NCBI GenBank assembly: GCA_029742005.1
Contig: GCA_029742005.1_4113.1
DNA length: 64,000 bases
Strand: one strand, 5' to 3'
DNA from: a phage
How positions within the stretch are numbered: the stretch's first letter is position 1; each line of letters begins with the position of its first letter. The notes beneath the pieces are model-generated. The model did no database searches. It was given only the letters and a program-made list of their open reading frames with translations, and was not told where the DNA came from. This document shows positions 38,163-57,330 of the stretch, piece after piece. Made by a program: the position numbers and the translations under genes.

Positions 38163-38678
38163 ATGACACGCATTAACTTAGTACACGTTAAAGAACTTGC
38201 TGACCAACATCTGATGGCTGAATATCGTGAACTCCCACGTGTATTTGGTGCTGTACAAAAACACGTTCAAGCACGTAAGCGTGTACGTGATTTCAAAATT
38301 AACAGTACTTACCTGTTAGGTTCAGGTCATGTAACATTCTTCTACAACAAGTTATTGTACTTACAGAAGCGTCATATTGATATTGTTAACGAATGTTTGC
38401 GTCGTGGTATGAAGATTCAAAACACTGAAGTAAACGACATTAGCGGATTCCCTGCTGAGTTTTGTAATGACTACGTACCATCGGAGTCAGAGATTAAAAT
38501 GTCTCGTGAGCGTTTGATTGAGAAGCTACAGATGAAGCCTACGTGGTATAAATTTACTGACGTTGAACGCCCACAGTATGTTAAAGATATGCAGGACGTA
38601 AGTAGTAATATAGAATCTAGTACTGATTTGTTCGACGAAATTGAAGAACAAATCAAAGATGAAATGAATAATTATTAA
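38163..38678 (+). CDS. denV: endonuclease V, pyrimidine-dimer DNA glycosylase
   Basis: N-terminal two-thirds closely matches T4 DenV as recalled from memory (MTRINL...[18 protein letters not shown]...KRVRDFKI...GHVTFFY); extra acidic C-terminal tail. Confidence 0.85.
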
Positions 38679-39583: not shown

Positions 39584-39922
39584 ATGCTTGAGTTTTTTAA
39601 TTCAGATACAATGCTTAGTATTACTTTGATTTATCTGTTTGGTTTTTTCTTTTATCATGCACTAGTTGTAGTACTATGGTATTTTAAAAAGAAAATCGTT
39701 TTCAAACTGTATCCTGATGGAAACATTTCACTACTTCTTTTCACTATTATCCAAGGTATGTTTGCAATTGTTGGTCTTATCGCACACTTAATTTATTGTG
39801 CTAATCCACAGTTGAACTCAATATCACAATATATTGTATTCCTTGGATTACTAATTTGGGTGCTGATATACTTGTTTAATCTCATCATTAATGGTAGAGC
39901 AAAAATTCGTGGGGACTTCTAA
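39584..39922 (+). CDS. small 3-TM membrane protein, array member
   Basis: Paralog of 34509-35544 family. Confidence 0.55.
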   Translation: MLEFFNSDTMLSITLIYLFGFFFYHALVVVLWYFKKKIVFKLYPDGNISLLLFTIIQGMFAIVGLIAHLIYCANPQLNSISQYIVFLGLLIWVLIYLFNLIINGRAKIRGDF

Positions 39923-40269
39923 TGTTTGAATCTTATCTTGAGTTTTTAAAGAGTAGTTCTGTTGCACATTCAATTGCAGGGATTATTCTAACAGGTTATG
40001 TAACATTTTGGGTAGTTATGTTTCTAGGATGGTATTTTAAACGACAATTCTATAAGCGTAATGGTGAAGATTTTATGAATTCTTTCATTAATCAATCGTT
40101 GTTTGCATCAACATTGATAGCATGTATTGTAGCAACACTCACAGGAAAGGTACTGCCAGCATTCTCCGCAGTTTACGGTACATTGGGTATGATATGTGTA
40201 GTTTTTTACTTGACCATTAAACTTTGTTGTGTTATGATTGAACTTCGAAACAAGATACCGGAGGAATGA
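39922..40269 (+). CDS. small 3-TM membrane protein, array member
   Basis: Coupled start; C-terminal RNKIPEE. Confidence 0.55.
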   Translation: MFESYLEFLKSSSVAHSIAGIILTGYVTFWVVMFLGWYFKRQFYKRNGEDFMNSFINQSLFASTLIACIVATLTGKVLPAFSAVYGTLGMICVVFYLTIKLCCVMIELRNKIPEE

Positions 40270-40604
40270 TGGAATATTTTTTACACTTACTGCCGTGGTA
40301 TATGAAAGTTAGTACTATGTACTATATTCTTAGTGCTGGATTCTACTTTCTGATGTGGTTCTTCAAACGACCAATTTCAGTATTCATCTCTGATAACATG
40401 CTGCAATTAAAATTACACGCATGGTTTTTTATGGCGATGTTTATGCCTATTATTCACTACTCAATGATTAGTAGAGGTTTACGTTCTAATGGTGAACCAA
40501 TTATATTAGTATTCTATTGGGGTTCAACTATTGCATATGTAAGTTTGTTGTTGATCCCAGCCGTTCATAAATTACGTGCTAAAGTTCCTGATGTGAGGTA
40601 CTAA
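40266..40604 (+). CDS. small 3-TM membrane protein, array member
   Basis: Overlapping ATGA junction. Confidence 0.55.
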   Translation: MMEYFLHLLPWYMKVSTMYYILSAGFYFLMWFFKRPISVFISDNMLQLKLHAWFFMAMFMPIIHYSMISRGLRSNGEPIILVFYWGSTIAYVSLLLIPAVHKLRAKVPDVRY

Positions 40605-40918
40605 TGGATATCTTAACATTGATTTACACGTTGTATTCATTCTATTTTATTATGTGTTGGGTTGGATTTTTATTTGTACTGAAGATGTTTGATTATGTTG
40701 AAAAACAGATAAAAGAATTTTGTATTCCTTTTATTGGGTCAACCATTATTAGTATTACTTGTTTGTATTATTTGGTATGTGATCCACCTGATGATACAGC
40801 TATGATTGATTTCATGTTATTGCCAACAACTGTTATTTTTTTATGTAGTCTGATGCCACCGATTAGCCGTGGACTAACTGAATTTAGACGCAATCAAAAG
40901 CGTAAACGAGGGATGTGA
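40604..40918 (+). CDS. small 3-TM membrane protein, array member
   Basis: Coupled start. Confidence 0.55.
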   Translation: MDILTLIYTLYSFYFIMCWVGFLFVLKMFDYVEKQIKEFCIPFIGSTIISITCLYYLVCDPPDDTAMIDFMLLPTTVIFLCSLMPPISRGLTEFRRNQKRKRGM

Positions 40919-41286
40919 TGGAAATTGCACTTATTATATTAACTGCTATGTTGTTTATTAGTACAATTGTTATTATTGGCAAGTTCTTCTGTGTATCCTT
41001 CTTGGAAACCGTATACGATGAAATTGCTGATGATTATGAATTACATGCGGGATTTTTTACTACGTATTGGATTAGTTTATTACTACTTATCACTGTATGG
41101 ATTTTACATATATTCAAATGGGGTATGGTAGATGGTGATCCAGTACTGGCAATTATCTGTGTAGTGTTTGGTCTACTCGGTGGTGCTGTCCATAATCTGA
41201 TGGTAATTTGGCAAACCGTACAATATGTATTAGTTCCACATTTTCAGAGAATGCACCAAAGCATCAAATACCGCAAACGAGGATAA
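40915..41286 (+). CDS. small 3-TM membrane protein, array member
   Basis: Overlapping junction. Confidence 0.55.
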   Translation: MMEIALIILTAMLFISTIVIIGKFFCVSFLETVYDEIADDYELHAGFFTTYWISLLLLITVWILHIFKWGMVDGDPVLAIICVVFGLLGGAVHNLMVIWQTVQYVLVPHFQRMHQSIKYRKRG

Positions 41287-41287
41287 C

Positions 41288-41650
41288 ATGAATAATATTG
41301 AATTATCTTTTATTGGTCAATTAATGGTAATGGCGTATACATTTATCTTCTCACTGAATGCATTCGTGTGCATTGGGAAGTACTTCCATAAGCGACCATT
41401 ATCAAATATATATGATGTAATCCAAAAGAGATATAGTCCAGCATATACTGTGTTGGGTACAGTATTCAATTTTGGTTTTATTGTATTAATAATTGGACTG
41501 TTCACATCCTCTTTGAATACAATAACCTTCGGTCTTATGATATGTTCATTGGTATTAGCCGTAATTATATGTTGTTTAGTACTACACCTTGTGATACTAT
41601 TATATATAAAGATCTCTGAAATCCACCAACGTTTGGGTATGAGGAAATAA
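41288..41650 (+). CDS. small 3-TM membrane protein, array member
   Basis: Coupled start. Confidence 0.55.
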   Translation: MNNIELSFIGQLMVMAYTFIFSLNAFVCIGKYFHKRPLSNIYDVIQKRYSPAYTVLGTVFNFGFIVLIIGLFTSSLNTITFGLMICSLVLAVIICCLVLHLVILLYIKISEIHQRLGMRK

Positions 41651-41651
41651 T

Positions 41652-42023
41652 ATGAGTTACCGTGAGATATTTTCCATTATTTCAATTATTATGTTCAGTA
41701 CTGGAACACTGGTATGGTTATTATATTTCTTCTGTATTAATCCAGTGTATAATATGTTATGTAATATTAAATCAAGTGCCGGATATATCACTTTTATGGT
41801 CTTTATGGGATATTATTGTCTAAGCATTTTAGGTGTTGTTTTGGTTGTTATATTTGATGTGGGGCCAAATAGTGATGGTATGGAAATACATGAATTAATA
41901 ACCATGTTTGGATGTATGATACCAACAGCACTACTGTTTGTAGCTACTGGTAGTGGATTGATAAAATTATATAATTATTTAAAATCCATTCATAATTCCA
42001 TTCATAATAAGCGTATGTCATAA
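41652..42023 (+). CDS. small 3-TM membrane protein, array member
   Basis: Coupled start. Confidence 0.55.
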   Translation: MSYREIFSIISIIMFSTGTLVWLLYFFCINPVYNMLCNIKSSAGYITFMVFMGYYCLSILGVVLVVIFDVGPNSDGMEIHELITMFGCMIPTALLFVATGSGLIKLYNYLKSIHNSIHNKRMS

Positions 42024-42065: not shown

Positions 42066-42728
42066 ATGATGAAATCAAAATTAGGTTTGTTTTATAAAAA
42101 CTATTTTGTTAAACAACGTAAATTTATAAAAAAATATTTCTCTGGTGAGAAGTCTAGTCCTATAATTTTTAAAAGACCAAGTTATAATACTTACTTAGCT
42201 GGTGCTAAACAGTCTAAGAAATTTATTACTCTTTTAAATAAAAACAAAATTAAAGCTTCTTATGTTGAAACGAGAAGAAACTCATCAATAACTCCTGGTG
42301 ATTTTATTGAGTACGGATGTTTCAATATTAAGTATAATGATAATACATACTTTATGGATATTGATTGTAATACATCCAATCTTTTTAACATTGTAGTAAA
42401 TCCATTAAAACAATATAATGTTTATGGTGATTCTATTATCAAATTAATAAAAAACAAAGATGGCTTTGATTTTGAAATAAATGTTTTAGATGATAATTTT
42501 GACGAAGTACCCGTAAACCCTGAAATCTGTGATATTTTAAACAGTTTAAAAGGTAGTACCTACAATATATCATCTGATTTAATGTTTCAGTACTCATTAA
42601 TCCATAAAGATATTGAAAAGTATATTGAATGCTCCAGAATTTTGAATTTTCTCTATGATGAATTTAAAAAGAGTTCTAAAATAACTGCATACACTTTGTA
42701 CAATATTCCTAAAATGGTGAATCTTTAA
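42066..42728 (+). CDS. hypothetical protein (220 aa)
   Basis: ORF track; AAGGAG RBS; last plus-strand gene before strand switch. Confidence 0.55.
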   Translation: MMKSKLGLFYKNYFVKQRKFIKKYFSGEKSSPIIFKRPSYNTYLAGAKQSKKFITLLNKNKIKASYVETRRNSSITPGDFIEYGCFNIKYNDNTYFMDIDCNTSNLFNIVVNPLKQYNVYGDSIIKLIKNKDGFDFEINVLDDNFDEVPVNPEICDILNSLKGSTYNISSDLMFQYSLIHKDIEKYIECSRILNFLYDEFKKSSKITAYTLYNIPKMVNL

Positions 42729-43132
42729 CAAATACAGTACTGGCAACTCCACCGTCTGTAATATATTGTCCAGTACTGTAAATTTGTATACCATCGGTTA
42801 AGTAAGTTCTGTATAAAGTTGCTGTAACATATACGTTATTCATATTCATCTCTATTGGTAGTACACATTTGGTATAGGCCGACACATCTGTTTGTGTACC
42901 TATACCCAATTGACCTGCGTTATCGCCTGTGTTATTACCAGTTGCGTAAACACCCAATGAAGTTATAATATGATTAGAAAAATATGAATAACCCAAACTC
43001 TTGAGATTCTCTACTGTACAACGTACCATCTGACATAAGGGCAAAAACTGTTGTATCAGATGAAGCTATTTTTGTTACAGAAGGTTGTATGTTCTGTTTT
43101 GATGATGTGATAATTCTTCGAAAGGGTAGCAT
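42709..43132 (-). pseudogene. truncated and frameshifted RCC1-like paralog
   Basis: N-terminus MLPFRRI in one frame (42974..43198) continues in another frame (42709..43044) carrying GNNTGDNAGQLGIGTQTD. Confidence 0.5.
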
Positions 43133-43203
43133 TGTATCCTCCAAATGTAAATCGTTATTATATTTAGGACAAAAAATGCCAGTACAAGGCACTGGCATAA
43201 AAT

Positions 43204-44373
43204 CTAAGCAGAAGGCATATCCTTCATCTTAATAAATGAAAATTGTGTACCAGTATTTGTGGTTTGATCAGTAAAATATGAATTACTACCAGCCCAGTAC
43301 AATTCATTATTAACTATACAATATATAACAGAACTCGAACTCTGTGAATACACACGACTTATATTTGATGGTTCTACTCCAGTACTGAACTGAACCGAAC
43401 CCAACTGTGAACTTGGTATCACATCAGTTGGTCTACCTAAACCATTAACACCAGCCCCACCACCACATGTATATACCCCAGTACTATCAGTTGATATATT
43501 AACATAACCATTCCCGGCATTTTCAAATAGTATTTCACTGGGAGCAACACCAAATCCTGTAAGATCTATTTTCCTGAATGTAGTGTAAACAGTAGAACCA
43601 CCAACACCTCTTCCACCATAATCATTAGAACCAGCCATATAGATACTATATCCAGAACTTCCTAAACATAATAACTGTACGTTGTCATATAATATTTGCA
43701 TAGATATAACGTTATCAGGAATACTCAATACCGTAAAAGTAGTTAAAGAAGAACTTCCAATATTACTACCAACCGATGTTCCACATCTGTAGTACTTACC
43801 GCCTTTTATATAATGGAACGATGAACCCCCTAACTTATGTGCTCCTATTGCACTTACCTCAGTATCTATGAGAATGGGAGATACAACTTTGTTATTAACA
43901 CCTAACTCAGATCTACTGTTCATACCGAACCCATATAAACGACCATCTAACATCAATATTAGTGTACTACCGGAAGTACCCGCTGACGTAAATTCTATAT
44001 TCTTTATTTGCGACACGTCAATACCTACAAATAATGAAGTTACTTCAGTCCAGTTAACATATGAACCACTAGCCCCAAAATATCCACCCATGTATAGACC
44101 TGCACAATATAATTTATTATCAACAGTCTTTATTAATGTACCGGATACACACGCCCAAAAATCATCAACTTCATAGGGTACATGTACCCAACCACCTAAT
44201 ACATCACTAGCATCCCCTGTACCTAATTTATAGTTCGAACCAGAACCACGCATGTACATATTCCCTGTACTATAAAGTAATCCGACATGTAATTGACTAC
44301 CATCCAATTTCTTTATTTCGGGAAGAGTTGGTTTAATATTTCCGTACTTTAACATTCTTCCAAAAGGTAACAT
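43204..44373 (-). CDS. RCC1-like beta-propeller repeat protein, array member 1
   Basis: Start at MLPFGRMLKYGN after AAGGAGG RBS; repeated Y-x-x-G-x-N-x-x-G-x-L/G-G motifs. Confidence 0.7.
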   Translation of the reverse strand: MLPFGRMLKYGNIKPTLPEIKKLDGSQLHVGLLYSTGNMYMRGSGSNYKLGTGDASDVLGGWVHVPYEVDDFWACVSGTLIKTVDNKLYCAGLYMGGYFGASGSYVNWTEVTSLFVGIDVSQIKNIEFTSAGTSGSTLILMLDGRLYGFGMNSRSELGVNNKVVSPILIDTEVSAIGAHKLGGSSFHYIKGGKYYRCGTSVGSNIGSSSLTTFTVLSIPDNVISMQILYDNVQLLCLGSSGYSIYMAGSNDYGGRGVGGSTVYTTFRKIDLTGFGVAPSEILFENAGNGYVNISTDSTGVYTCGGGAGVNGLGRPTDVIPSSQLGSVQFSTGVEPSNISRVYSQSSSSVIYCIVNNELYWAGSNSYFTDQTTNTGTQFSFIKMKDMPSA

Positions 44374-44444
44374 AATTCCTCCTTTATTCATTATACTATA
44401 TTTAATACAAAAAGAAAAGCCAGTACAGAGTACTGGCCTATATT

Positions 44445-45164
44445 TTAGACTGAATTGTTAGGATAATATCTCCCACGTCCCCATATTATTCGCACAGCAC
44501 CACCACCAGCAGCCGTATAAGAAAAATTATCCCATATACTACCACCACCACCATACATCTTACCAGCACCACCACTACCAGCACCACCATTATATGAACC
44601 ATCGTATCTACCGCCAATACCATTAGCACCTTGAACAATGATACCAGTACCACCACCCGTACCAATGAACGAGGTATTATAGAATGCACCACCACCGCCG
44701 CCGCCGCCAGCACCATTTTCACCAGTGATTGCATCTCCGTTACCACCTTTACCAGTGTAGCCACCAGCACCACCACCAATGACTGCACCACCACTTACAC
44801 CAGCGTTGCCCCCATTACCACCACCATCATTAATAGCGTTAGCAGCTTTCCCACCTAGTCCACCAACCCTATATTCACCAGTGAAGCTAACACATAGTTT
44901 TTCAGTTCCACGATATAAACCGTTTTCAACTGGTGTAGTAGTGTTGGGATGTGTAAGAGAAACACTTAAGTACTCACCACTAGTAACCGGAATATTATTA
45001 CGCCACGATAAGCCGCCACCAGCACCACGTTGACCACCCGGCGAAATAACACATACTGATATTTCGGTAACGCCAGCAGGAACTGTAAATTGTGTTGTTC
45101 CTATTGTCGTGATTAATTGTTCACCATGTGGCTTATATTCAATTTTATTCCCTCCTTTATTCAT
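44445..45164 (-). CDS. glycine-rich repeat protein (start codon uncertain)
   Basis: ~100-aa N-terminal domain then GGxGG-rich tract ending GGGAVRIIWG; same upstream cassette as RCC1-like genes. Confidence 0.55.
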   Translation of the reverse strand: MNKGGNKIEYKPHGEQLITTIGTTQFTVPAGVTEISVCVISPGGQRGAGGGLSWRNNIPVTSGEYLSVSLTHPNTTTPVENGLYRGTEKLCVSFTGEYRVGGLGGKAANAINDGGGNGGNAGVSGGAVIGGGAGGYTGKGGNGDAITGENGAGGGGGGGAFYNTSFIGTGGGTGIIVQGANGIGGRYDGSYNGGAGSGGAGKMYGGGGSIWDNFSYTAAGGGAVRIIWGRGRYYPNNSV

Positions 45165-45218
45165 TATAATATATTTAATACAAAAAAGAAAAGCCAGTAC
45201 TCTGTACTGGCTTTTACA

Positions 45219-46409
45219 TTACAATTGTCTAGGTGTATCCAGTACATATCTATTTGTACGAGGACCACCATCATCATGCGTTCCGGTTGAATATATATTT
45301 TTCATATCAGCAGTTAGGAAAGTACGATACGAACCGCGATATATTTTAATTTTATCATACATAGAATATGTTATTCCTGACGGCAATGGACATGCAGTAA
45401 ATTTACCAATGGTAACATTAGAACCAACACCTAATGTACCAGCATAACCACTCGCATTTAAACCAGTTGCATATACACCTGTACTCGTAACTAGTATACT
45501 AGATTGTGATGCATATCCAGTATGGATTGAATAATAAGTTCCTGATGGTAATGTAGTACTATTATTCCCTAATACTGCTAGTGCTGTACTATTCGTAGTG
45601 TTATTACCCCATGCCCCATTATTAGCTAATCCACCAACTAGAAACTGACGTGCTCCTGTATTTGGATTCTCCACTAAAGCACTGACAGCACCAAATGAAC
45701 AAACAGTATATTGTAATGTTTTTGTATATGTGGTACTTGGCTTATACAAAGTATATTCATTAAATGGTGTCCATGTGGTACTAGTACTTATGCCAGATGT
45801 ACTACCACCAATATATAAATTATTTTGTGTATCAAAAAACATTGCACAGTAATTTGTTGACTGTATTTGTGCAATATCTACATCTGGTGTTACCGCTTTA
45901 ACAAATGAACCATCTGATATTTGATAAGTAGTTCCTGTACCATCTGCGAATTGTCTAGCACTATTCCACCCTGTACTCCATATTGTATTATTATCCATTA
46001 AGAAAGTAAACCATGTAGTACCTGCATACATCTGTTTAATTGAAGTACTTGAACTTTGTTTGTACAATTTTTCAATATATTGGTTATAACTTAAAAATGA
46101 TGTAGTACTAGTTTCTAAACCAATATGACTACCATATCCACAATAAAAATAATTTAAGTCCTTATCTTGAACTAACAAAGTTCCTTGTGTCATCCAGCAA
46201 TCTTTGACATTTTCTCTAATTAATGTCCACGACCTTACTGCATTATTATTTCCTCTACCAAACTTCCCAAAACTATTACTGCCTCGTGCGTATAGTTGAC
46301 CGTCGGTATAAAGTACAACAACCTCAGTATCAGTTGGTATTATTTTCTTAATTTGAAGAGGTTCAGGTGTGATATTCCCATAATCAAACATTCTAACAAA
46401 AGGTAACAT
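45219..46409 (-). CDS. RCC1-like beta-propeller repeat protein, array member 2
   Basis: N-terminus MLPFVRMFDYGN. Confidence 0.7.
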   Translation of the reverse strand: MLPFVRMFDYGNITPEPLQIKKIIPTDTEVVVLYTDGQLYARGSNSFGKFGRGNNNAVRSWTLIRENVKDCWMTQGTLLVQDKDLNYFYCGYGSHIGLETSTTSFLSYNQYIEKLYKQSSSTSIKQMYAGTTWFTFLMDNNTIWSTGWNSARQFADGTGTTYQISDGSFVKAVTPDVDIAQIQSTNYCAMFFDTQNNLYIGGSTSGISTSTTWTPFNEYTLYKPSTTYTKTLQYTVCSFGAVSALVENPNTGARQFLVGGLANNGAWGNNTTNSTALAVLGNNSTTLPSGTYYSIHTGYASQSSILVTSTGVYATGLNASGYAGTLGVGSNVTIGKFTACPLPSGITYSMYDKIKIYRGSYRTFLTADMKNIYSTGTHDDGGPRTNRYVLDTPRQL

Positions 46410-46478
46410 ATTTCCTCCTTATTCATTATACTATATTTAATACAAATAAGAATGCCAGTATCAAGTACTGGCATTATG

Positions 46479-47588
46479 TTATTTTGGTAAATCAATTTTA
46501 GTAAAGACTGCAACATCCTCGATTGCACCTGGAATGGCGTAATACGATCCAGTACTATACACATCTCCATTTTTGGTTAATATCGATGTCAAACCATCAC
46601 TAAAAAGAACATCCCTAATCTCACTAACTTCAACGGGTAATTGTAAATTGGTAGCACTATATATAGCACCAGTTTGAGAATTGTTTAATCCCAAACCACG
46701 GTTCGCCCCAACACCCTTCTGATATGTACTAGTAATTACCATTTGTGTAGCAGTATTTAAGGCAGGTGAATTCGTCATAAACAACGGAGAACTATTAGGC
46801 AAAGTACTTACAGGAACGGCACGGAATGTAGTCGTGCCTGAACTAAGAAAGTTTGGAGTTTGACCACATACGAAATATGATGTACCATTATAGTAATTGA
46901 ATGCATTACCACCAATGGCTGCATCGATTACACCAGAACTACGCAATCCCCAAGTGTTAATTTGTGTTTGGTTCCCCGTACCATGCTGTCCACTACTATT
47001 CCATCCAGAACTATATAGCTTATTATCTAATGTAAGATACATACTATCATTCGCATTGGTCATTACTTTACGAACGTTCGTAGCACATTGAGTTAATGTG
47101 TAAATTGATGAGGAACCAATACCCAAAGAACCACGATATCCATTATCTCCTGCACCATAGAGTACTGAATTAGTGCTAAGTACAAATATTAAACCATTTG
47201 TACATACAATATTAGCAATTTCACTTACTGGTATAGCATTGGTAAACCAATTAGTCCTTTCAACTAATACAGTACTGTAAGAAGTAGTTGTAGAAGATGA
47301 GAACCAGTACGTTTGACCTGATGTCCATATCGTATTATCATTTTTAATAATAACAAGTGTACGATCACCCACGAAAAAATTAGAAACATCTGCACTTACT
47401 AATATCCATGAAGATACCGTGTTGGTATTACCATTTCCAGATTCACCACCTTGATTTCTACCTATGTAATATAAATCATGTGAATCAGTCAATAAGAATT
47501 GACCTTGTGTAGAAGCACCAACTTTAATTATATTTTTAGGACCAGGTACAATATTTCCGTACTTAACCATTCTTGCAAAAGGTAACAT
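46479..47588 (-). CDS. RCC1-like beta-propeller repeat protein, array member 3
   Basis: N-terminus MLPFARMVKYGN; C-terminus FTKIDLPK. Confidence 0.7.
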   Translation of the reverse strand: MLPFARMVKYGNIVPGPKNIIKVGASTQGQFLLTDSHDLYYIGRNQGGESGNGNTNTVSSWILVSADVSNFFVGDRTLVIIKNDNTIWTSGQTYWFSSSTTTSYSTVLVERTNWFTNAIPVSEIANIVCTNGLIFVLSTNSVLYGAGDNGYRGSLGIGSSSIYTLTQCATNVRKVMTNANDSMYLTLDNKLYSSGWNSSGQHGTGNQTQINTWGLRSSGVIDAAIGGNAFNYYNGTSYFVCGQTPNFLSSGTTTFRAVPVSTLPNSSPLFMTNSPALNTATQMVITSTYQKGVGANRGLGLNNSQTGAIYSATNLQLPVEVSEIRDVLFSDGLTSILTKNGDVYSTGSYYAIPGAIEDVAVFTKIDLPK

Positions 47589-47598
47589 AATTCTCTCC

Positions 47599-48729
47599 TT
47601 AATTTAATAATGCCCCTGGCAAATCCACTTTGACGAATTGTGCATATGCTGAGGAATTTTGATCAAAGTTTGGTCCCAATCCATAAAATGAGCTAATGCC
47701 GTCTTCATTTGTGTATATGATATAAACGTTCTTTACATCATTTCCGCATATAAATCGAATGTCTTTCGTTTGTGTTCCCGCTGGAACATTACGAAGGTTC
47801 ACAACGCCATTACTTGCATTGTTATCAGCCGACGCAATTGGTAATTGATTTTGACCATATTGACCACGCATATTTTTTGCATCTAAACCAAACACAGTAT
47901 TTGATACCGCACCAACTTTCAAAAATGAACCAAAACTATTATTGAATGACTTTGGAAATGTACCACTATAAACACTTCTCCCATCTGATAATACCGCTGA
48001 ACTGAATTTCCCGTTATTCGATATGGCAAATTCATTGTAAGGAAGTGTACCCATTTTGGTATATACAGAATATGAATTAGTGGAAGTATTATCAATAATC
48101 TTATTACCATTATATCCAATACCATACTGGTATCCGTCTGCATCTTGAACTATACACAAAGGACCACTTGGGGTTTGTGTCAACGAAACAACACGTTCAA
48201 CTTGTATATCACCAAATGTATTTCTTCGCCATGTTCTATCTATTATAGTACTAGTATTACCCAAAGATAATTCCACACTATATAATAGATTGTTTTCAGT
48301 AAAAATGGCAACATAATATGCGTGGTTAATAACTTGCTTCATCCCAGCATCAATAACTTCCTGTGGAATATGATCAGTAACATCCAACCAATCAAGGTTA
48401 GATGATGCAATATCTGGAGTACTGAATTTGTCAAATCTAGTTGAGCCACAAACTAGCACTCTATCATCATTTGTCAAAGCCACTGTGCTAGTCTGCATAT
48501 TAGAACTGAATGATTTAACATTACTAATGTTAGACTTGTACCAACCCTTATCAGCAGCACCCACCGTGAATCCGGTTCCCATTGATCCACTTGTACTTGT
48601 ACCATAAGCCCACATCTCACCACTATATGTTAGTGCCATACAGTGGCTTCCATTTGCTTGGAAATCCTTTATACCAGTGGGAGCAACCACTGTATTCCCA
48701 TAATCAAACATTCTAACAAAAGGTAACAT
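47599..48729 (-). CDS. RCC1-like beta-propeller repeat protein, array member 4
   Basis: Start at MLPFVRMFDYGN; C-terminus FVKVDLPG. Confidence 0.7.
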   Translation of the reverse strand: MLPFVRMFDYGNTVVAPTGIKDFQANGSHCMALTYSGEMWAYGTSTSGSMGTGFTVGAADKGWYKSNISNVKSFSSNMQTSTVALTNDDRVLVCGSTRFDKFSTPDIASSNLDWLDVTDHIPQEVIDAGMKQVINHAYYVAIFTENNLLYSVELSLGNTSTIIDRTWRRNTFGDIQVERVVSLTQTPSGPLCIVQDADGYQYGIGYNGNKIIDNTSTNSYSVYTKMGTLPYNEFAISNNGKFSSAVLSDGRSVYSGTFPKSFNNSFGSFLKVGAVSNTVFGLDAKNMRGQYGQNQLPIASADNNASNGVVNLRNVPAGTQTKDIRFICGNDVKNVYIIYTNEDGISSFYGLGPNFDQNSSAYAQFVKVDLPGALLN

Positions 48730-48804
48730 AACTAAAATCTCCATATAATAATTATAATGTATTTACAAAAAAATACCAGTACATATTTCAGTACTGGCAT
48801 TTTG

Positions 48805-49932
48805 TTAAAATGGTAAATCTATTTGTTTAGTAAATGTCATACTTAGTGGTATTGAACACATTGACGCATTTCTCCCATTTAAATTGGACGGAGGCTGTCC
48901 GTTCATCCATATATTGGTATCGTCGTAAAAAGTACTCCACCACGTAGAACCTTCCGTATGAAGATTAATATTAAAATCAGGGAATTGACATTCTTGAAAA
49001 ACATCAAAAAACGGGATAGATGATACACTACTACCAGTAAATGGAGTGTAGCCTGTTGACATTAATTTATTAGTATCCGAATTTACCAAAAAGATAACAG
49101 AACCAGTATTGAATGGTGAATATTTTGGATACAAATTACTCATATCACCGATAGTGAAGTTGATATCAAATATTTTACTATGCTTACCAGTTCCTGAAAG
49201 TGTAGTACCAGTTACATATATTTTATTATCAGTTGTTCCCATGACAAACCCAATTCCAAATCCCACACAAAATGTTATGTCATATGGTATATTATCAAAG
49301 AGTGGGACAAACGTTGTGGCATCACCAGTAGTAGCTTTTATTTGATAGCTATTATTTGCCCCAGCACCCCAAACAGTACCATTTGATTTCACTTTGAATA
49401 TACTATCTCCTATGTAGTGACCGTATATACTATCAACTTCAGTATCAAGTTTTGTCCATTGTGATACAAAGTTTTTATGCCCTAAACCTAAACAACCATT
49501 GCGGTTTAGTCCCCTGCCGTATAGTGTACCATCATTCATCAGTACAAATGTTGTGTATCCACAAAGCATTTTTTTGATTTGTGTAACATCAATACCAGCA
49601 AAAAAACCACTCCAATCAGTATATCCTTGTTGGATTGCGTTTGATTTGGTGAATGACATAGTTGGTCCTGAACCATATATTTTACCATCTTTTATAATCA
49701 CTGAATAAGAACCTAACCATACATCTTGAACATTCTCACTAATTGTTTTCAATTCACCATATGCAGAGAATGGAGTACTTTGCCCTGCACTATATGATGA
49801 ATCTTCACCGTGTGCATATAATGTTCCATTTTCTGTTAGAATCATTTCCAAATATACACAATTGACAATTTTCTTTATTTTATTAACTTCTATTTTATTT
49901 CCGTACGCTAACATCCTTGCAAAAGGTAACAT
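48805..49932 (-). CDS. RCC1-like beta-propeller repeat protein, array member 5
   Basis: Start at MLPFARMLAYGN; C-terminus FTKQIDLPF. Confidence 0.7.
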   Translation of the reverse strand: MLPFARMLAYGNKIEVNKIKKIVNCVYLEMILTENGTLYAHGEDSSYSAGQSTPFSAYGELKTISENVQDVWLGSYSVIIKDGKIYGSGPTMSFTKSNAIQQGYTDWSGFFAGIDVTQIKKMLCGYTTFVLMNDGTLYGRGLNRNGCLGLGHKNFVSQWTKLDTEVDSIYGHYIGDSIFKVKSNGTVWGAGANNSYQIKATTGDATTFVPLFDNIPYDITFCVGFGIGFVMGTTDNKIYVTGTTLSGTGKHSKIFDINFTIGDMSNLYPKYSPFNTGSVIFLVNSDTNKLMSTGYTPFTGSSVSSIPFFDVFQECQFPDFNINLHTEGSTWWSTFYDDTNIWMNGQPPSNLNGRNASMCSIPLSMTFTKQIDLPF

Positions 49933-50007
49933 AACTAAAATCTCCATATAATAATTATAATGTATTTACAAAAAAATACCAGCACATATTTCAGTACTGG
50001 TATAATG

Positions 50008-51180
50008 TTATGGTAAAATAATAGCTTGTAACGAACTCATACCCAATGTTGGAACACTCGCCTGTGGTGCTGGTGCATTCACTTTTGGTGATGAAACCGC
50101 ATAAGTCATTCCTGTACCCAAATCTGGATCAAAAACTACAGAACAATAATCCCCATTGTATATAAGTCCATTAGTATATCCTTGTACACTTTGAATGCAT
50201 TTCGTGAACGTACCAATGTCAGTAGTGGCATTTATTAAGTTCCTCCCACGGTAGCCACATGTGTATATGAAATTATCATCACCTATGTACATACTCGCAT
50301 TCCCAGAAGAACTACATAGATAAGACATATAAGCACGCATGTTTTTAGGAGCAACTGACAATGTACCAGCATAGAATTTATTATTCATACCCGAAATATC
50401 ACCATCACCCAAAGCACCAAAACTCCCCCAACCAGTACCATAATATCTCTTATCACTCAAGAATATAATACAGTTGTTATTACACATCTTGACTTGATAT
50501 ATCAATGAAGGATCAACCCCAGGGAATGATTCAGTGTATGTTAGAACAGCCAGATCAGTACTGGCATTACATTGATGATATGTATTAGTACCAGCGGACA
50601 ATATTGTACCATCAACTAATAGAATCCTCGAAGTGCCAGTACCAGCAATACAAGCAACAGCATTACCTGTATATATTTTTCTGAAAGTAAAGAAACCAAC
50701 AGTCTTACTCCCCTGTCCACTCCAACCAGTATTATCAACACCACATGCCCATACTGAACCATCTTGCATGATCATCATTACACCATAGCGTTCTATCGAA
50801 ATATAGACAATCTTCGTAGTATCAACTGCACTAAATCTAGAAGTTATATCAGTCCAAACCTTTACACTCACCGCCGTCGCACCGAAAGTAGGATCTTCCC
50901 CTGCTATCATTATCCTACCATTGTTAGTCAGATACATTGTCTGACTATAACCAGTACTACAAAACTTAACACTATCAGTCTCTGGAACTTTTAACCACTC
51001 GTTGTAACGTGTTACGTTAGTGTTATTATCTAACTGATAATAGTTATTCATCCCAGATACATATAACACACCATCCTTTATTAAACTATAAGTCGCACTA
51101 TAGTCACTACAGGTATAACGTGTACCCACAGGTCGCTCAACGACGTTCCCATATTCTAACATCCTTACAAAAGGCAACAT
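50008..51180 (-). CDS. RCC1-like beta-propeller repeat protein, array member 6
   Basis: Start at MLPFVRMLEYGN. Confidence 0.7.
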   Translation of the reverse strand: MLPFVRMLEYGNVVERPVGTRYTCSDYSATYSLIKDGVLYVSGMNNYYQLDNNTNVTRYNEWLKVPETDSVKFCSTGYSQTMYLTNNGRIMIAGEDPTFGATAVSVKVWTDITSRFSAVDTTKIVYISIERYGVMMIMQDGSVWACGVDNTGWSGQGSKTVGFFTFRKIYTGNAVACIAGTGTSRILLVDGTILSAGTNTYHQCNASTDLAVLTYTESFPGVDPSLIYQVKMCNNNCIIFLSDKRYYGTGWGSFGALGDGDISGMNNKFYAGTLSVAPKNMRAYMSYLCSSSGNASMYIGDDNFIYTCGYRGRNLINATTDIGTFTKCIQSVQGYTNGLIYNGDYCSVVFDPDLGTGMTYAVSSPKVNAPAPQASVPTLGMSSLQAIILP

Positions 51181-51221
51181 AACTAAATACCAGAACATAT
51201 TTCAGTACTGGTATCGTAGCG

Positions 51222-52364
51222 TTAAAATGGCATCTTAACCTCTTTATATACTAATATATCACCGGATAAACCAGGAAACGCAGAACCATTACCACATGCA
51301 TATATAGTACTGTCATTCCACGCCGCTTGATGGTAATTACCTATAGTACATTTATAATTCGATAAATCAGTCACACCAGGTGTTAGTACATAATATACTG
51401 GTCCACTAGGTAAATTAAAATCAAATCTACCAAAGTAGTTCAAACCAGATGAATAGGACTTGTCATTAGCAAATATTACAGTACCATCTTCTGTAAAAGA
51501 ACTGTGAGAAATGTCTTTGAGATTGTTCACAACACCAGACGGTATTGATGTATTCAACGTAAAGGACGTCAATGGTGCTGCACTCGGTGTGTTGTTCGCC
51601 GTGTAACCATAATATGCATAACCAGCTACATATACACTCGAATCTGAACAAAATAAAAATGCACTCCTATAACCCAACCTAATACTCTCTATAGTCTTAC
51701 TAAAAGTAACTTTAGTAAAGGTAGGAACTAAACCACTATATCCTACCCCACATGTACCAAAATCATTCTTCCCAGTACTGTACAATTCGTTATTATTTGT
51801 AAGGTAAAATGACGCAGCAGCACCGCTATCTAAAGTACTGTAAACGTCTTTTACATTACTCGCAATCAATTTAAATGCACTCAATACGGTAGCCGAACCA
51901 TTGTTAGACAGCGTTGTTGAATCCGTGCCTTGTCCTATTGTATATAAATCTCCAGTACTAGTCAAAACAAATATACCATTAGTCGCCATAACAATTCTGT
52001 CATTCTTTAAATTAAATGAACTAAAAAGTGTACTTATATCAGTAAAGGTAGTATAACGCCCACTCTGCCCTATACTCGATAAATTCCCACTCAAATAAAC
52101 CTTATTATCATTACCAACAGCTACATAACAACCCCACCCAGCATATATCTGATCAATGCCTTGTATCGGTATTTGTAACCATTCACTACCAGTTACCGAA
52201 GCAGTACTTCCAGTTCCAAGTTCACCAGAGTTATTAGCTCCGAATACATATAAATTCCCACTATCCGATAAAACAACTGTATTACCAACTCCAGTTTTTA
52301 TATCCTTGATACCATTCTTAGGAGCAACATTCCCATAATCAAACATTCTAACAAAAGGTAACAT
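51222..52364 (-). CDS. RCC1-like beta-propeller repeat protein, array member 7
   Basis: N-terminus MLPFVRMFDYGN; C-terminus YKEVKMPF. Confidence 0.7.
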   Translation of the reverse strand: MLPFVRMFDYGNVAPKNGIKDIKTGVGNTVVLSDSGNLYVFGANNSGELGTGSTASVTGSEWLQIPIQGIDQIYAGWGCYVAVGNDNKVYLSGNLSSIGQSGRYTTFTDISTLFSSFNLKNDRIVMATNGIFVLTSTGDLYTIGQGTDSTTLSNNGSATVLSAFKLIASNVKDVYSTLDSGAAASFYLTNNNELYSTGKNDFGTCGVGYSGLVPTFTKVTFSKTIESIRLGYRSAFLFCSDSSVYVAGYAYYGYTANNTPSAAPLTSFTLNTSIPSGVVNNLKDISHSSFTEDGTVIFANDKSYSSGLNYFGRFDFNLPSGPVYYVLTPGVTDLSNYKCTIGNYHQAAWNDSTIYACGNGSAFPGLSGDILVYKEVKMPF

Positions 52365-52436
52365 ATTTCCCTCCTTTATTCATTATACTATATTTAATCA
52401 AAAATAAAAGCCAGTACTTGAGTACTGGCATAGTAT

Positions 52437-53564
52437 TCAAAAAGGTAAATCAATTTGCTTAGTAATAATAGTATCTAACGGTATTGAACACAATGAGAAA
52501 TTCTTTCCACCCGTATTTTCAGGATTATATCCATTCATCCATACATTATTACCTTCGTAAAATGTATTCCAGTATAAAGCCCCACTATATCGTGTATTCG
52601 AATTGAACGATGGAAAGTTGAATTCTTGGAATGATGTAAAATATGGAATGGAACTTGAACTACTTCCCGTAAATGGGGTATACCCAGTTGCTATTAGTTT
52701 GTTTGTATCTGCATTAATTAAAAATACAACACTAGTCGAATAGTCCAACGAATCAGGATGATATATATTACTCATATCACCTATAGTAAAACCAACATCA
52801 AAAACTTTACTATGTGCACCACTACCAGCAAAAGTAGTTCCAGTTGCATATATTTTATTATCAGATGTTATCATTACAAAACCAACACCAGAAACAAAAC
52901 TGCATTTTATATCATAAGATATATCATCAAACAACGGAACAAATGTGGTTGCATCACCCGATGTTGCTTTAACTTGAAAGCTGTTATTTGAACCTGAACC
53001 ATATACAGTTCCATCGTTTTTAATCTTAAACAATGTATCGCCAAGGTAACCGCCAAATATATTATCCACATTAGTGTCAAGTACAGTCCACGCTGAAACA
53101 TAATTTTTATGTCCTAAACCTAATGCACCACTTCGATTCCATCCTCTTCCATAAAGTGTTCCGTCTTTCATTAATATAAATGCTGTATAACCACATAACA
53201 TTTTTTTAATTTGGGTAACATCTATACCAGTGAAATACACAGCCCAGTCAGTATATCCTTGTTGGAAAGTATCAGAATTCGTGAATGCATATGTTGGACC
53301 TGAACCATATATTTTATCACCTTTAATAACAACGGAAAACAATCCTAACCATAAGTCATCAACTTCAGTTGTGATTTGTTGAACTGCTCCTAACGATACA
53401 AACTTTGTACTTAAACCCGCATTATAGTTTGAATCTTCACCGTGTGCATATACAGTGCCATCTTGCATTAGAAACATTTCAAGAGTGCCACTAACAACAC
53501 TTTTCTTTATATTATTAACTTCGATTATATTCCCATAATCAAACATTCTAACAAAAGGTAACAT
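52437..53564 (-). CDS. RCC1-like beta-propeller repeat protein, array member 8 (close paralog of member 5)
   Basis: N-terminus MLPFVRMFDYGN; C-terminus ITKQIDLPF. Confidence 0.7.
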   Translation of the reverse strand: MLPFVRMFDYGNIIEVNNIKKSVVSGTLEMFLMQDGTVYAHGEDSNYNAGLSTKFVSLGAVQQITTEVDDLWLGLFSVVIKGDKIYGSGPTYAFTNSDTFQQGYTDWAVYFTGIDVTQIKKMLCGYTAFILMKDGTLYGRGWNRSGALGLGHKNYVSAWTVLDTNVDNIFGGYLGDTLFKIKNDGTVYGSGSNNSFQVKATSGDATTFVPLFDDISYDIKCSFVSGVGFVMITSDNKIYATGTTFAGSGAHSKVFDVGFTIGDMSNIYHPDSLDYSTSVVFLINADTNKLIATGYTPFTGSSSSSIPYFTSFQEFNFPSFNSNTRYSGALYWNTFYEGNNVWMNGYNPENTGGKNFSLCSIPLDTIITKQIDLPF

Positions 53565-53636
53565 AATTCCCTCCTTTATTCATTATACTTTATTTAATAC
53601 AAATAAGAATTCCTGTATCGAGTACTGGCATTCAAT

Positions 53637-54881: not shown

Positions 54882-55109
54882 ATGACAGCTACACTTAAGT
54901 ACTACATTAATACTCTAAATGAACTAGAGTACGGTAAGTTTCTCGCGGATTGTTCGTGGCTAATAGAGCTAAAAACACATAACAGTACTGGATGTAACCT
55001 TATGCTGAACAATGCACTTGATACCCTTGTAGTGAGTATTTTACACAGCAACATCTGCGGGAATAGCAATAAACAATTATCAAAAATCTTAGTACTGGTA
55101 GCTATATGA
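54882..55109 (+). CDS. small hypothetical protein, first gene of small-paralog array
   Basis: ORF track; AAGGAGAA RBS. Confidence 0.5.
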   Translation: MTATLKYYINTLNELEYGKFLADCSWLIELKTHNSTGCNLMLNNALDTLVVSILHSNICGNSNKQLSKILVLVAI

Positions 55110-55318
55110 ACACTATGAACATTAAACAGTACTACATCGATGCACTACCAACAAAAGGTCTACGAGAAAGCCTACTGTATACACAAAATAATTTTATACA
55201 CTACAAACGTTATCCTAAACTCCTGAACTCGTACAGGAATAATAACATAAGAAATGCTTTACAAGGGGTAGAAAGTATGCAATACTATTACATCCTTACC
55301 CTTTTAATCGAGTACTAA
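55106..55318 (+). CDS. small paralog-array protein (YY-N-term, LLIEY C-term)
   Basis: ORF track; coupled start. Confidence 0.5.
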   Translation: MNTMNIKQYYIDALPTKGLRESLLYTQNNFIHYKRYPKLLNSYRNNNIRNALQGVESMQYYYILTLLIEY

Positions 55319-55319
55319 T

Positions 55320-55505
55320 ATGTATAAAGAATTCTACTGTAGTAAGCTGCACAAGCAATACCGAGATTCATTCCCCAATGAACCTATGGACATGAATAGT
55401 CCATTTTATAAATTTGACTTCAGACTGGAGACACGTTATGCAATAGAACATCAATTTCCTGAAACTAAGTACTTATCTATCATGAACCTCATCTTTAAGT
55501 TCTAA
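55320..55505 (+). CDS. small paralog-array protein
   Basis: ORF track. Confidence 0.5.
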   Translation: MYKEFYCSKLHKQYRDSFPNEPMDMNSPFYKFDFRLETRYAIEHQFPETKYLSIMNLIFKF

Positions 55506-55516
55506 AAGAGTACTAT

Positions 55517-55911: not shown

Positions 55912-55921
55912 AGAGAATACT

Positions 55922-56107: not shown

Positions 56108-56115
56108 GGTACTCT

Positions 56116-56295: not shown

Positions 56296-56303
56296 GGAAT
56301 AAT

Positions 56304-56483: not shown

Positions 56484-56494
56484 AGGAATCTAAT

Positions 56495-57329: not shown

Positions 57330-57330
57330 T

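What the first reader, a model, noticed from the sequence alone, without database searches (positions are those of the whole stretch)
44445..45164. Glycine-rich repeat protein embedded in the RCC1-like array
A 239-aa ORF with a ~100-aa N-terminal domain followed by dense GGxGG tracts and a C-terminal GGGAVRIIWG sits between array members 1 and 2 and carries the same upstream cassette. Co-regulation with the propeller genes suggests a shared function, perhaps a flexible fibre or spacer. The start codon is unclear because no RBS precedes the first ATG.
Basis: seen in the sequence. Interest (0 to 1): 0.6.

Follow-up and report, generated by a model that had tools for sequence, protein, structure and literature searches.

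The report
Truncated glycine-rich phage adhesin-module gene
This ORF is a real jumbo-phage gene for a compact "TNF-like plus polyglycine" binding module of the kind found at phage tail-fibre tips, but in this genome a 36-37-base deletion has removed its own start codon and the 12-residue N-terminal tag that it shares, in sister phages, with the neighbouring propeller proteins.

Summary
There is a 239-codon ORF at 44445-45164 (-), 29% Gly, ending GGGAVRIIWG. It lies between two RCC1-like genes and sits behind the same terminator/promoter-like/SD cassette.

The unclear start has a concrete cause. Compared with all GenBank relatives examined, this allele lacks 36-37 nt between two GGGAAT repeats. 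The deletion removes the native ATG and the residues MLPFGRMVKYG. The remaining ATG lies inside a conserved TATAAT.

The lost peptide, MLPFxxxxxYGN, heads RCC1-like, Kelch, LamG and Gly-rich proteins across Rak2-like jumbo phages. Several of these proteins have been detected in virions by mass spectrometry.

The likely reading is an accessory virion-displayed adhesin gene that is crippled in this genome. As a gene it is ordinary; the shared tag is the interesting by-product.

The parts
44445..45164 (-). 239-codon ORF plus stop: the 5'-truncated allele of the Asteriusvirus glycine-rich-domain protein (245 aa in 121Q, G17, UE-S1 and ECO103 4-12-1)
   Evidence: phrog_4474 E=2.3e-65. 93-99% aa identity in 17 GenBank coliphage records, 84% in an 18th (CMSTMSU).
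44880..45131 (-). Predicted TNF-like beta-sandwich part (window residues about 12-95; the C-terminal strand AVRIIWG probably returns to it)
44499..44879 (-). Glycine-rich region (window residues about 96-222; 40% Gly in residues 101-239), predicted polyglycine-II lattice; contains the family-invariant INDGGGNGG and GGAGGY motifs
44478..44507 (-). C-terminal motif GGGAVRIIWG (residues 220-229), conserved family-wide as G.VRIIWG..R.FP
   Evidence: nearly invariant R231, W234, G235, R238; invariant P241 in P0001 numbering.
45147..45152 (-). Deletion junction: a single GGGAAT where relatives have two copies 37 nt apart (36 nt missing relative to 121Q-type sequences). The lost segment holds the SD-start spacer, the native ATG and codons for MLPFGRM(V/I)KYG.
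   Evidence: Alignment A1. In one search, the 7 records (6 phages; 121Q is listed under two accessions) matching both halves of the 161-nt junction query span 196-197 nt, and no record crosses the junction in one piece. The identical junction is in L010, L011 and L012.
45150..45157 (-). Shine-Dalgarno sequence AAGGAGGG of the cassette, now downstream of the only in-frame ATG
45141..45143 (-). In-frame ATT (codon 8), 6 nt after the SD (the spacer is AATAAA): the only start-like in-frame codon correctly placed. An out-of-frame TTG at 45142-45140 opens a 9-codon ORF.
   Evidence: no in-frame ATG, GTG or TTG in codons 2-130.
45163..45177 (-). Promoter-like 15-mer TAAATATATTATAAT of the array cassette. 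Its last two bases are the A and T of the ORF's ATG (45164-45162).
   Evidence: (8 hits against 0.48 expected). UE-S1 has TATAAC-A here, so it has no ATG at this position.
45189..45215 (-). Hairpin terminator of the upstream RCC1-like gene (GCCAGTAC...GTACTGGC plus a T-run), first element of the cassette
   Evidence: (7 terminator-like sites against 1.7 expected), family D4.
44417..44439 (-). Hairpin terminator after the glycine-rich ORF, which starts the cassette of the next array gene
45219..46409 (-). Upstream neighbour: RCC1-like propeller gene carrying the N-terminal tag MLPFVRMFDYGN
43204..44373 (-). Downstream neighbour: RCC1-like propeller gene carrying the N-terminal tag MLPFGRMLKYGN (true start 44373; the 'MNKGGI' extension to 44391 is again the cassette ATG)

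Best explanation
SHOWN. The ORF is the local allele of a conserved Asteriusvirus gene. Its product is a stand-alone TNF-like beta-sandwich plus polyglycine-II 'glycine-rich domain' module. This is the fold that forms the receptor-binding tip of the Pam3 tail fibre, the Bxb1 gp33 tail brush and the ligand-binding domain of ALK.

In sister phages the 245-aa protein begins MLPFGRMVKYGN. The same 12-residue N-terminal peptide heads every RCC1-like protein of the array. In other Rak2-like jumbo phages it also heads Kelch propellers, LamG-type lectin-like proteins and another Gly-rich homologue.

In this window a 36-37-nt deletion between two GGGAAT repeats has removed the native start codon and 11 of the 12 tag residues. 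By frame, it fused the rest of the gene to an ATG that is part of the cassette's TATAAT.

INFERRED.
(a) The MLPF...YGN peptide is a virion-incorporation or docking tag. It lets a set of interchangeable binding modules be displayed on the particle, probably on the 'hairy' capsid and tail appendages of these phages.
(b) The intact glycine-rich protein is one such accessory adhesin that contacts a host-surface ligand through the loops of its polyglycine lattice.
(c) The allele in this window is crippled. On its own transcript only an AUU, or an out-of-frame UUG, follows the SD. Any product would lack the tag, so it is expected to be made poorly and not to be mounted on the virion.
For: Genome identity.

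Family: phrog_4474 E=2.3e-65. 12 of 60 homologues reach Pfam PF21722. The profile finds 6,604 cluster representatives.

Deletion: alignment A1. No GenBank record crosses the junction. The same allele, nucleotide-identical, is in GCA_958319075.1 and two Logan assemblies.

Start: there is no in-frame canonical start other than the cassette ATG. That ATG is absent in UE-S1. It lies in a 15-mer conserved across cassettes.

Tag: the only invariant block among RCC1 paralogues that are otherwise 18-30% identical. Synonymous codon differences occur within it (TTA/TTG, AGA/AGG, TAT/TAC, GGA/GGG, AAT/AAC), and it is kept behind three different upstream sequences. It is found many times per genome only in Rak2-like jumbo contigs, always at ORF starts, on RCC1-like (11), Kelch (5), Laminin_G_3 (5) and Gly-rich proteins.

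CBB_548-554 all carry the tag, two of them with A for the G (YAN).

Virion mass spectrometry detected CBB_551 and CBB_552 and GAP32 gp001 (PMC5259590), and phAPEC6 gp003/005/006/007/009/010 (PMC7247149). phrog_6011 'virion structural protein' aligns from residue 1. The N-terminal 12-15 residues have low confidence in both AF2 models and different predicted secondary structure in each. This fits a tail that is not part of either fold.
Against: There is no direct evidence that the glycine-rich protein itself is in any virion. In phAPEC6 it was annotated in the wrong frame, so it could not have been found by MS.

The tag's role is an inference from co-occurrence. It could instead be a capsid-targeting, chaperone or translation signal.

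The promoter reading of TATAAT is untested. Read-through transcripts would contain the ATG at 45164, and SD-less initiation in an AT-rich leader is possible.

The truncated allele keeps an intact 239-codon frame and occurs in at least three further assemblies. All copies are nucleotide-identical, so this says nothing about selection.

dN/dS among intact alleles is only moderately low, about 0.3-0.8 in most pairs, and rests on few substitutions.

Only 18 of the 37 related GenBank records carry the gene, so it is dispensable.

The fold assignment rests on a predicted model.
Confidence: 0.6

Rival explanations
1. The allele in this window is fully functional. Translation starts at the ATG at 45164 and gives a 239-aa untagged glycine-rich protein. 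That protein acts free in the cell or lysate, or joins the virion by another surface.
For: The reading frame is intact, and the deletion leaves the ATG in frame. The allele is present in four assemblies. The whole globular module is retained. The AT-rich leader could support weak SD-independent initiation.
Against: No SD lies upstream of this ATG; the SD is downstream of it. The ATG overlaps the conserved TATAAT of the cassette and is absent in UE-S1. All GenBank relatives keep the native start and tag. The four copies are nucleotide-identical, so persistence under selection is not shown. One of them (L010) has lost a further 33 codons, including the invariant GGAGGY.
Confidence: 0.25
2. The protein is an intrinsically flexible glycine-rich linker or fibre: the first reader's spacer idea, or a collagen- or PE-PGRS-like low-complexity protein.
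For: High Gly content. Some database records name homologues 'PE-PGRS' or 'collagen-like'.
Confidence: 0.03
3. The tagged proteins, including the intact glycine-rich protein, are internal capsid cargo ('DNA condensation' or inner-body proteins, as proposed for the RCC1-like proteins of phAPEC6). On this view MLPF...YGN is a capsid-targeting sequence.
For: The RCC1-like proteins are virion-associated by MS, and the phAPEC6 authors suggested an inner-body or DNA-condensation role (PMC7247149). T4 internal proteins use a short N-terminal targeting sequence (established knowledge).
Against: Every domain carrying the tag is a typical extracellular ligand-binding fold: RCC1 and Kelch propellers, LamG, and TNF-like/polyglycine. 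The closest solved relatives are external fibre or brush components. The tag has no conserved Glu or other protease-site-like residue. These phages have unexplained external hairs (PMC7247149, PMC5259590).
Confidence: 0.1
4. The family has a lysis- or cell-wall-related role, suggested by gene neighbourhood in other phages.
For: One homologue sits directly after a PG_binding_1/Muramidase gene in a 216-kb contig. Another sits directly before two small genes that look like spanins, followed by terminase, in a phiTE-like contig.
Against: This rests on only two contexts. In Asteriusvirus the gene lies in the array of virion-protein genes. The fold relatives are adhesins. There is no enzymatic motif and no transmembrane segment.
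Confidence: 0.02

Closest known systems
Cyanophage Pam3 tail fibre gp24 (PDB 7YPX; PMC9608196)
   Different: Sequence identity is 17%. gp24 has an N-terminal alpha-helical shaft that trimerises and docks to the baseplate, and it needs a chaperone (gp25). The Asteriusvirus protein has no helical domain, only a 12-residue N-terminal peptide, and that peptide is deleted in this window. Oligomeric state is unknown.
Mycobacteriophage Bxb1 gp33 'tail wing brush' and gp29 tail spike subdomain (PDB 9D93)
   Different: The host and virion type differ (a siphovirus of an actinobacterium). gp33 is held through gp30/gp31. There is no shared N-terminal tag.
ALK/LTK receptor glycine-rich domain (PDB 7LRZ, 7LIR, 7LS0, 7NX3)
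   Different: It is part of the ectodomain of an animal receptor kinase. Identity is 16-18%. No homology is claimed beyond the fold.
S16/T2-type gp38 long-tail-fibre adhesin (PDB 6F45; 9V85)
   Same: Polyglycine-II sandwich with glycine-rich motifs separating variable loops that bind outer-membrane proteins (PMC9608196, PMC13243192).
Pfam PF21722 Gly_rich_2 / phrog_4474
   Same: phrog_4474 matches at E=2.3e-65. More distant homologues reach PF21722.
   Different: The window protein and its 245-aa parent give no PF21722 hit, even at E<=0.1 for the window protein. Both families are annotated only as 'glycine-rich domain' or unknown function.
MLPF...YGN-headed virion proteins of Rak2-like jumbo phages (CBB_548-554, GAP32 gp001, phAPEC6 gp003-010, 121Q gp234-248)
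   Same: In sister phages the glycine-rich protein carries the same N-terminal 12-mer and the same cassette. Several members have been detected in virions by MS (PMC5259590, PMC7247149).
   Different: Their globular parts are unrelated folds: RCC1, Kelch and LamG. The window allele has lost the tag. I found no publication describing the tag.

Membership tests
Pfam PF21722 (Gly_rich_2, glycine-rich domain) | HMM score above the gathering threshold (24.3 bits) | tested here: not met
   The window protein gives no hit at E<=0.1, and P0001 gives none at E<=0.01. 12 of 60 aligned homologues do match (best 8e-13), so this is a divergent branch of the same superfamily.
PHROG phrog_4474 | Significant profile match over the module | tested here: met
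   E=2.3e-65, 222.6 bits; residues 8-238 against profile positions 145-398 of 407.
TNF-like + polyglycine-II glycine-rich domain fold (Pam3 gp24 / ALK GRD type) | Beta-sandwich with a glycine-rich extended-strand lattice; structural superposition on solved members | tested here: met
Pam3 gp24-type trimeric tail fibre | N-terminal alpha-helical shaft for trimerisation and baseplate docking | tested here: not met
   The model has no helix of 5 or more residues; the first ordered element is a beta-strand at about residue 20. The protein is only 245 aa, with a 12-residue N-terminal peptide.
Pam3 gp24-type trimeric tail fibre | Dedicated Tfa-type chaperone gene next to the fibre gene | tested here: not met
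   Both neighbours are RCC1-like genes.
gp38-type (S16/T2) adhesin | gp37-binding N-domain plus PGII sandwich with hypervariable segments | tested here: inconclusive
MLPF...YGN-tagged accessory virion proteins of Rak2-like jumbo phages (group defined here) | N-terminus M-L-P-F-x5-Y-G-N directly after the start codon | tested here: not met
   The window allele starts MNKGGNKIEY; the tag was removed by the 36-37-nt deletion. The feature is met in 121Q, phAPEC6, G17, UE-S1, ECO103 4-12-1 and CMSTMSU and in the CBB Gly-rich homologue (L046).
MLPF...YGN-tagged accessory virion proteins of Rak2-like jumbo phages (group defined here) | Presence of the protein in purified virions | not testable with these tools
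   MS evidence exists for RCC1-like, Kelch and LamG members (PMC7247149, PMC5259590). There is none for the Gly-rich member; phAPEC6 gp004 was annotated in the wrong frame.
Collagen-like / PE-PGRS proteins | GXY triplet periodicity (collagen) or a PE N-domain with a PGRS repeat (mycobacterial) | tested here: not met
   No Pfam collagen or PE hit. The motifs are GGxGG-type and position-specific. The 'PE-PGRS' labels in some records are annotation carry-over.

The most novel reading that the evidence does not exclude
The 12-residue N-terminal peptide MLPFxxxxxYGN may be a previously undescribed universal 'plug' of Rak2-like jumbo phages (Asteriusvirus, Mimasvirus/CBB, GAP32 and others). On this reading it mounts a changeable repertoire of unrelated binding modules on a common socket of the virion. 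The modules are RCC1 and Kelch propellers, LamG lectin-like domains and TNF-like/polyglycine domains. This would explain the molecular make-up of the enigmatic hairs or whiskers on capsid and tail. The glycine-rich gene of this window would then be a natural 'unplugged' mutant.
Probability: 0.35. Interest if true: 0.65.

Novelty: new member of a known kind. Interest (0 to 1): 0.4.

Why it matters
As a gene it is ordinary: one more member of the widespread phage glycine-rich-domain (TNF-like/polyglycine-II) adhesin modules, and here a damaged allele.

There are three practical consequences:
- The gene is mis-annotated or unannotated in several GenBank jumbo-phage records. phAPEC6 gp004 is called in the wrong frame, so published virion proteomes could not have detected it.
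- The puzzling start codon is explained by a microhomology-mediated deletion, not by unusual translation.
- Following the lost N-terminus revealed a short peptide shared by at least four unrelated binding folds in Rak2-like jumbo phages, several of them MS-confirmed virion components.

If that peptide is a docking tag, it gives a testable handle on what the 'hairy' appendages of these phages are made of. It would also offer a possible way to display foreign modules on jumbo-phage particles.

Tried and rejected
- Direct Pfam and NCBIfam scans of the protein gave nothing: no Pfam hit, and only a meaningless TagQ hit at E=9.
- The sequence search of the PDB returned only artificial Gly-Ser linker/Strep-tag constructs (8r9y, 9bgy), which I rejected as compositional.
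- The exact deletion junction was not found in IMG/VR, nor with a 42-nt megablast query in GenBank phages. The second negative could be due to the low-complexity filter, so I repeated it with a 161-nt query, which confirmed that no record crosses the junction.
- dN/dS among six alleles rests on too few substitutions to be decisive (about 0.3-0.8 in most pairs).
- The nucleotide identity of the four deletion alleles means nothing can be said about selection after the deletion.
- The homologue search with an RCC1-like paralogue found only 11 proteins. The RCC1-like AF2 model is mediocre (pLDDT 67.6), so whether the tag packs on the propeller is unresolved.
- Literature searches for the tag, for PF21722 and for proteomic evidence found no description of the tag or of this protein.
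- No supplementary peptide tables were available for the phAPEC6 paper.
- The sigma-70 consensus scan is uninformative in this AT-rich DNA (24 hits against 21 expected).
- The lysis-gene neighbourhood idea rests on two contexts only, and I set it aside.
- Closer Gly-rich homologues in other phages start M[LI]E[LM]L, even when an extra Ig-like domain follows. This may be an analogous tag in other phage groups, but I did not test it.

Full report
**What is there.** The window is 31-41% G+C, and its 43-55 kb stretch is read on the minus strand. DNA and protein searches place it in the Asteriusvirus group of about 350-kb 'Rak2-like' jumbo coliphages (121Q, PBECO4, phAPEC6, G17 and others). The 4-kb region around the finding matches 37 phage records.

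The reported ORF exists exactly as described: 44445-45164 (-), 239 codons, ATG start. It has 70 glycines (29%), rising to 40% in residues 101-239, and GGGAVRIIWG is residues 220-229. It lies between two RCC1-like genes, 43204-44373 and 45219-46409. These belong to an array of nine intact paralogues plus a degraded remnant at 42709-43198.

Upstream of the ORF lies the same cassette that precedes most array genes. It consists of:
- a GCCAGTAC...GTACTGGC hairpin with a T-run at 45215-45189;
- a 15-mer TAAATAyAkTATAAT, found 8 times in the window against 0.48 expected, 7 of them in the array;
- the sequence GAATAAAGGAGG.

**The gene is real.** tblastn finds the protein in 18 Escherichia phage records, at 93-99% identity in 17 of them and 84% in CMSTMSU. 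A word-indexed search finds 113 more distant proteins. A profile of 60 homologues finds 6,604 cluster representatives at E<=1e-3 and 1,897 at E<=1e-30. Many of these are large multi-domain proteins with several copies of the module.

The alignment has invariant or near-invariant non-glycine motifs: LSWRNNIPVTPGE, INDGGGNGG, GGAGGYxGxGG and G.VRIIWG..R.FP. These fix the Gly reading frame. The V-, T- and P-rich ORFs in the other frames are by-products of GGN codons. One such wrong-frame ORF is what GenBank annotates as phAPEC6 gp004.

**What it is.** Pfam and NCBIfam give no hit for the protein itself. PHROGs gives phrog_4474, of unknown function, at E=2.3e-65. Twelve of the 60 homologues reach Pfam PF21722 Gly_rich_2.

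An AlphaFold2 model of the full-length 245-aa form, built with the 60-sequence alignment, is very confident: pLDDT 92.8, pTM 0.89. Only the first ~15 residues are poorly defined. Residues ~100-228 are ordered but almost free of helix or sheet by DSSP, as expected for polyglycine-II/PPII segments.

Foldseek against viral models returns 'glycine-rich domain-containing', tail-fibre, minor-tail and baseplate proteins.

The Pam3 paper describes exactly this architecture: a TNF-like sandwich whose loops form a four-layer glycine-rich lattice, 39% Gly, with variable distal tips proposed to bind the receptor. It notes the resemblance to S16 gp38 and ALK (PMC9608196). Bxb1 gp33 is an accessory decoration held through gp30 and is absent from close relatives (PMC12646305; PMC13243192).

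So the protein is a compact ligand-binding module, not a flexible fibre or spacer.

**Why the start is unclear.** The closest database protein, P0001 (245 aa, 98% identical), begins MLPFGRMVKYGNKIEYKP. The window protein begins MNKGGNKIEYKP.

I aligned the 5' regions of 121Q, phAPEC6, G17, CMSTMSU, ECO103 4-12-1 and UE-S1 with the window. The window lacks 36-37 nt. In G17-type sequences the missing segment lies between two GGGAAT direct repeats:

...AAAGGAGGGAAT|TATGTTACCTTTTGGAAGAATGATTAAGTAC|GGGAATAAAATTG...

The deletion removes the SD-start spacer, the native ATG and the codons for MLPFGRM(V/I)KYG.

A 161-nt query across the junction shows that every GenBank record matching both halves is 35-36 nt longer there. 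None crosses the junction in one piece.

The deletion is not an assembly artefact of this window. The same junction and a nucleotide-identical gene occur in GCA_958319075.1 (a 346,757-bp contig) and in two Logan assemblies. One of these, L010, has lost a further 33 codons, including the invariant GGAGGY. Their differences from the window lie in the neighbouring RCC1-like gene, so this is one recent haplotype moving among mosaic relatives.

After the deletion, the only canonical in-frame start in the first 130 codons is the ATG at 45164. That ATG has no SD before it. Its A and T are the last bases of the conserved TATAAT of the cassette. It is absent in UE-S1, which reads TATAAC-A.

Behind the SD (45157-45150) come an in-frame ATT (45143) and an out-of-frame TTG (45142) that opens a 9-codon ORF.

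Inference: on the gene's own transcript there is no good start, and any product lacks the N-terminal peptide.

**The lost peptide is the interesting part.** All nine RCC1-like proteins of the window begin MLPFxRMxxYGN. In an alignment of 16 RCC1-like proteins, most of them only 18-30% identical to the reference paralogue, this is the only invariant block: M1 L2 P3 F4 R6 Y10 G11 N12. Two observations point to selection on the peptide rather than on the DNA:
- the block carries synonymous codon differences (TTA/TTG, AGA/AGG, TAT/TAC, GGA/GGG, AAT/AAC);
- it is kept behind three different kinds of upstream sequence.

I scanned IMG/VR for ATG-Leu-Pro-Phe-x5-Tyr-Gly-Asn. Multiple hits per contig occur only in Rak2-like jumbo contigs, always at the start of ORFs of 168-676 aa:

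| Contig | Hits |
|---|---|
| 121Q | 11 |
| CBB (378,379 bp) | 8 |
| 370,971-bp contig | 9 |
| 355,155-bp contig | 5 |
| 371,104-bp contig | 4 |
| 358,663-bp contig (the size of GAP32) | 2 |

Hits in small contigs are mostly short chance ORFs.

Of 30 such proteins, 11 are RCC1-like, 5 are Kelch propellers and 5 are Laminin_G_3. One is another Gly-rich homologue (L046). Note that the invariance of MLPF/YGN within this set was imposed by the search pattern and is not independent evidence.

In CBB, seven consecutive genes (CBB_548-554) all start MLPF..Y[GA]N, and five are annotated as structural proteins. The CBB paper reports:
- CBB_551 and CBB_552 in virions by MS;
- the RCC1-like GAP32 gp001 as an MS-identified structural protein;
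- long tail 'whiskers' whose components could not be assigned (PMC5259590).

The phAPEC6 paper lists gp003, 005, 006, 007, 009 and 010 (the RCC1-like array) in the virion proteome. It also describes unassigned fibres at hexamer centres and in three rings on the tail (PMC7247149). phrog_6011 'virion structural protein' aligns to the LamG-type members from residue 1.

In both AF2 models the 12-mer has low confidence. It is predicted as strand in one model and helix in the other. I found no publication describing this peptide.

**Most likely mechanism.**

Shown: the fold family, the deletion, the shared cassette and the shared N-terminal peptide.

Inferred:
- the peptide is a virion-incorporation or docking tag that lets unrelated binding modules be displayed on the particle;
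- the intact glycine-rich protein is one such accessory adhesin;
- the allele in this window is poorly translated and cannot be mounted.

The gene is dispensable: it is present in 18 of the 37 related records, the CMSTMSU copy is frameshifted, and L010 carries a further deletion. This matches the accessory nature of Bxb1 gp33.

**Rivals.**
- The truncated allele is functional from the upstream ATG (0.25).
- The tagged proteins are internal capsid cargo and the peptide is a capsid-targeting sequence (0.10). This is disfavoured because all tagged domains are extracellular-type binding folds and the tag has no conserved protease-site residue.
- A disordered spacer (0.03).
- A lysis-related role suggested by two gene neighbourhoods (0.02).

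**Comparison and novelty.** The protein works like the distal module of Pam3 gp24, Bxb1 gp33 and the ALK GRD. It is a member of phrog_4474 and a divergent relative of PF21722. It is not a Pam3-type fibre, because it has no helical shaft and no adjacent chaperone gene. It cannot be called a gp38-type adhesin.

It is a new member of a known kind, and in this genome a damaged one. The possibly new element is the MLPF...YGN tag shared across four folds in Rak2-like phages. It lies outside the original finding and needs experiments.

**Verdict.** Interest is 0.4: low for the gene itself, raised by the tag lead and by the annotation corrections.

Noticed in passing
window 43204-54785 (-), and loci L015, L016, L039, L054, L056: The N-terminal peptide MLPFxxxxxYGN heads all nine RCC1-like proteins of the window. 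In other Rak2-like jumbo phages it also heads Kelch, Laminin_G_3, Gly-rich and unassigned proteins. CBB_548-554 all carry it, and several are MS-confirmed virion proteins. I found no description of it in the literature.
   Followed up: partly
window 55106-58868 (+): About 14 tandem small ORFs (59-76 aa) share an N-terminal 'M..KE[FY]Y' motif and a C-terminal 'LL[LI][FY]R[YHK]' motif, with repeated upstream sequences (repeat families D10-D12 and D15-D19). This is a second, unrelated paralogue array of unknown function.
   Followed up: no
window 39584-42023 (+): Seven consecutive ORFs of 104-123 aa look like small multi-pass membrane proteins and appear to be paralogues.
   Followed up: no
window 42709-43198 (-): Two overlapping ORFs (111 and 74 aa) carry RCC1-repeat-like sequence and a degenerate tag (MLPFRRIITSSK). 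They appear to be a frameshifted or truncated remnant of a tenth array member. A hairpin terminator (43198-43176) overlaps the 5' end of the remnant.
   Followed up: no
L003 (MK817115.1 7716-8018) and L005 (MH494197.1): phAPEC6 gp004 is annotated in the wrong reading frame of the glycine-rich gene, as a V-rich 101-aa ORF. The real 244-aa protein was therefore absent from the published virion-proteome search. The CMSTMSU copy is split by a frameshift and labelled with a carried-over M. tuberculosis note.
   Followed up: yes
window 44390-44404, 45163-45177, 46425-46439, 48751-48765, 49954-49968, 52382-52396, 53582-53596 (-); also 12373-12387 (-): The conserved 15-mer TAAATAyAkTATAAT sits in front of the array genes, in two cassette types. 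It is a candidate phage promoter. In type A cassettes the TATAAT-G creates a spurious ATG that ORF finders use ('MNKGG...' extensions). In type B cassettes a separate upstream ATG gives the 'MEILV...' extensions.
   Followed up: partly
window 45219-46409 (-) compared with L011 and L012: The RCC1-like gene upstream of the finding is mosaic. Almost all of the 108 (L012) and most of the 118 (L011) differences from two otherwise near-identical relatives fall inside it, while the glycine-rich gene is nucleotide-identical. This suggests frequent recombination or exchange of array members.
   Followed up: partly
proteins P0005-P0026, P0030, P0042, P0078, P0097; locus L008 8134-8799: Closer Gly-rich homologues from other phage groups start with M[LI]E[LM]L..., even when an Ig-like domain is inserted after it. 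In a phiTE-like contig a nearby 221-aa protein starts similarly (MNEMMIVS...). This may be an analogous N-terminal tag in other phages.
   Followed up: no
window 38163-38678 (+): The N-terminus ([29 protein letters not shown]) resembles T4 endonuclease V (DenV). This is from memory only and was not tested.
   Followed up: no
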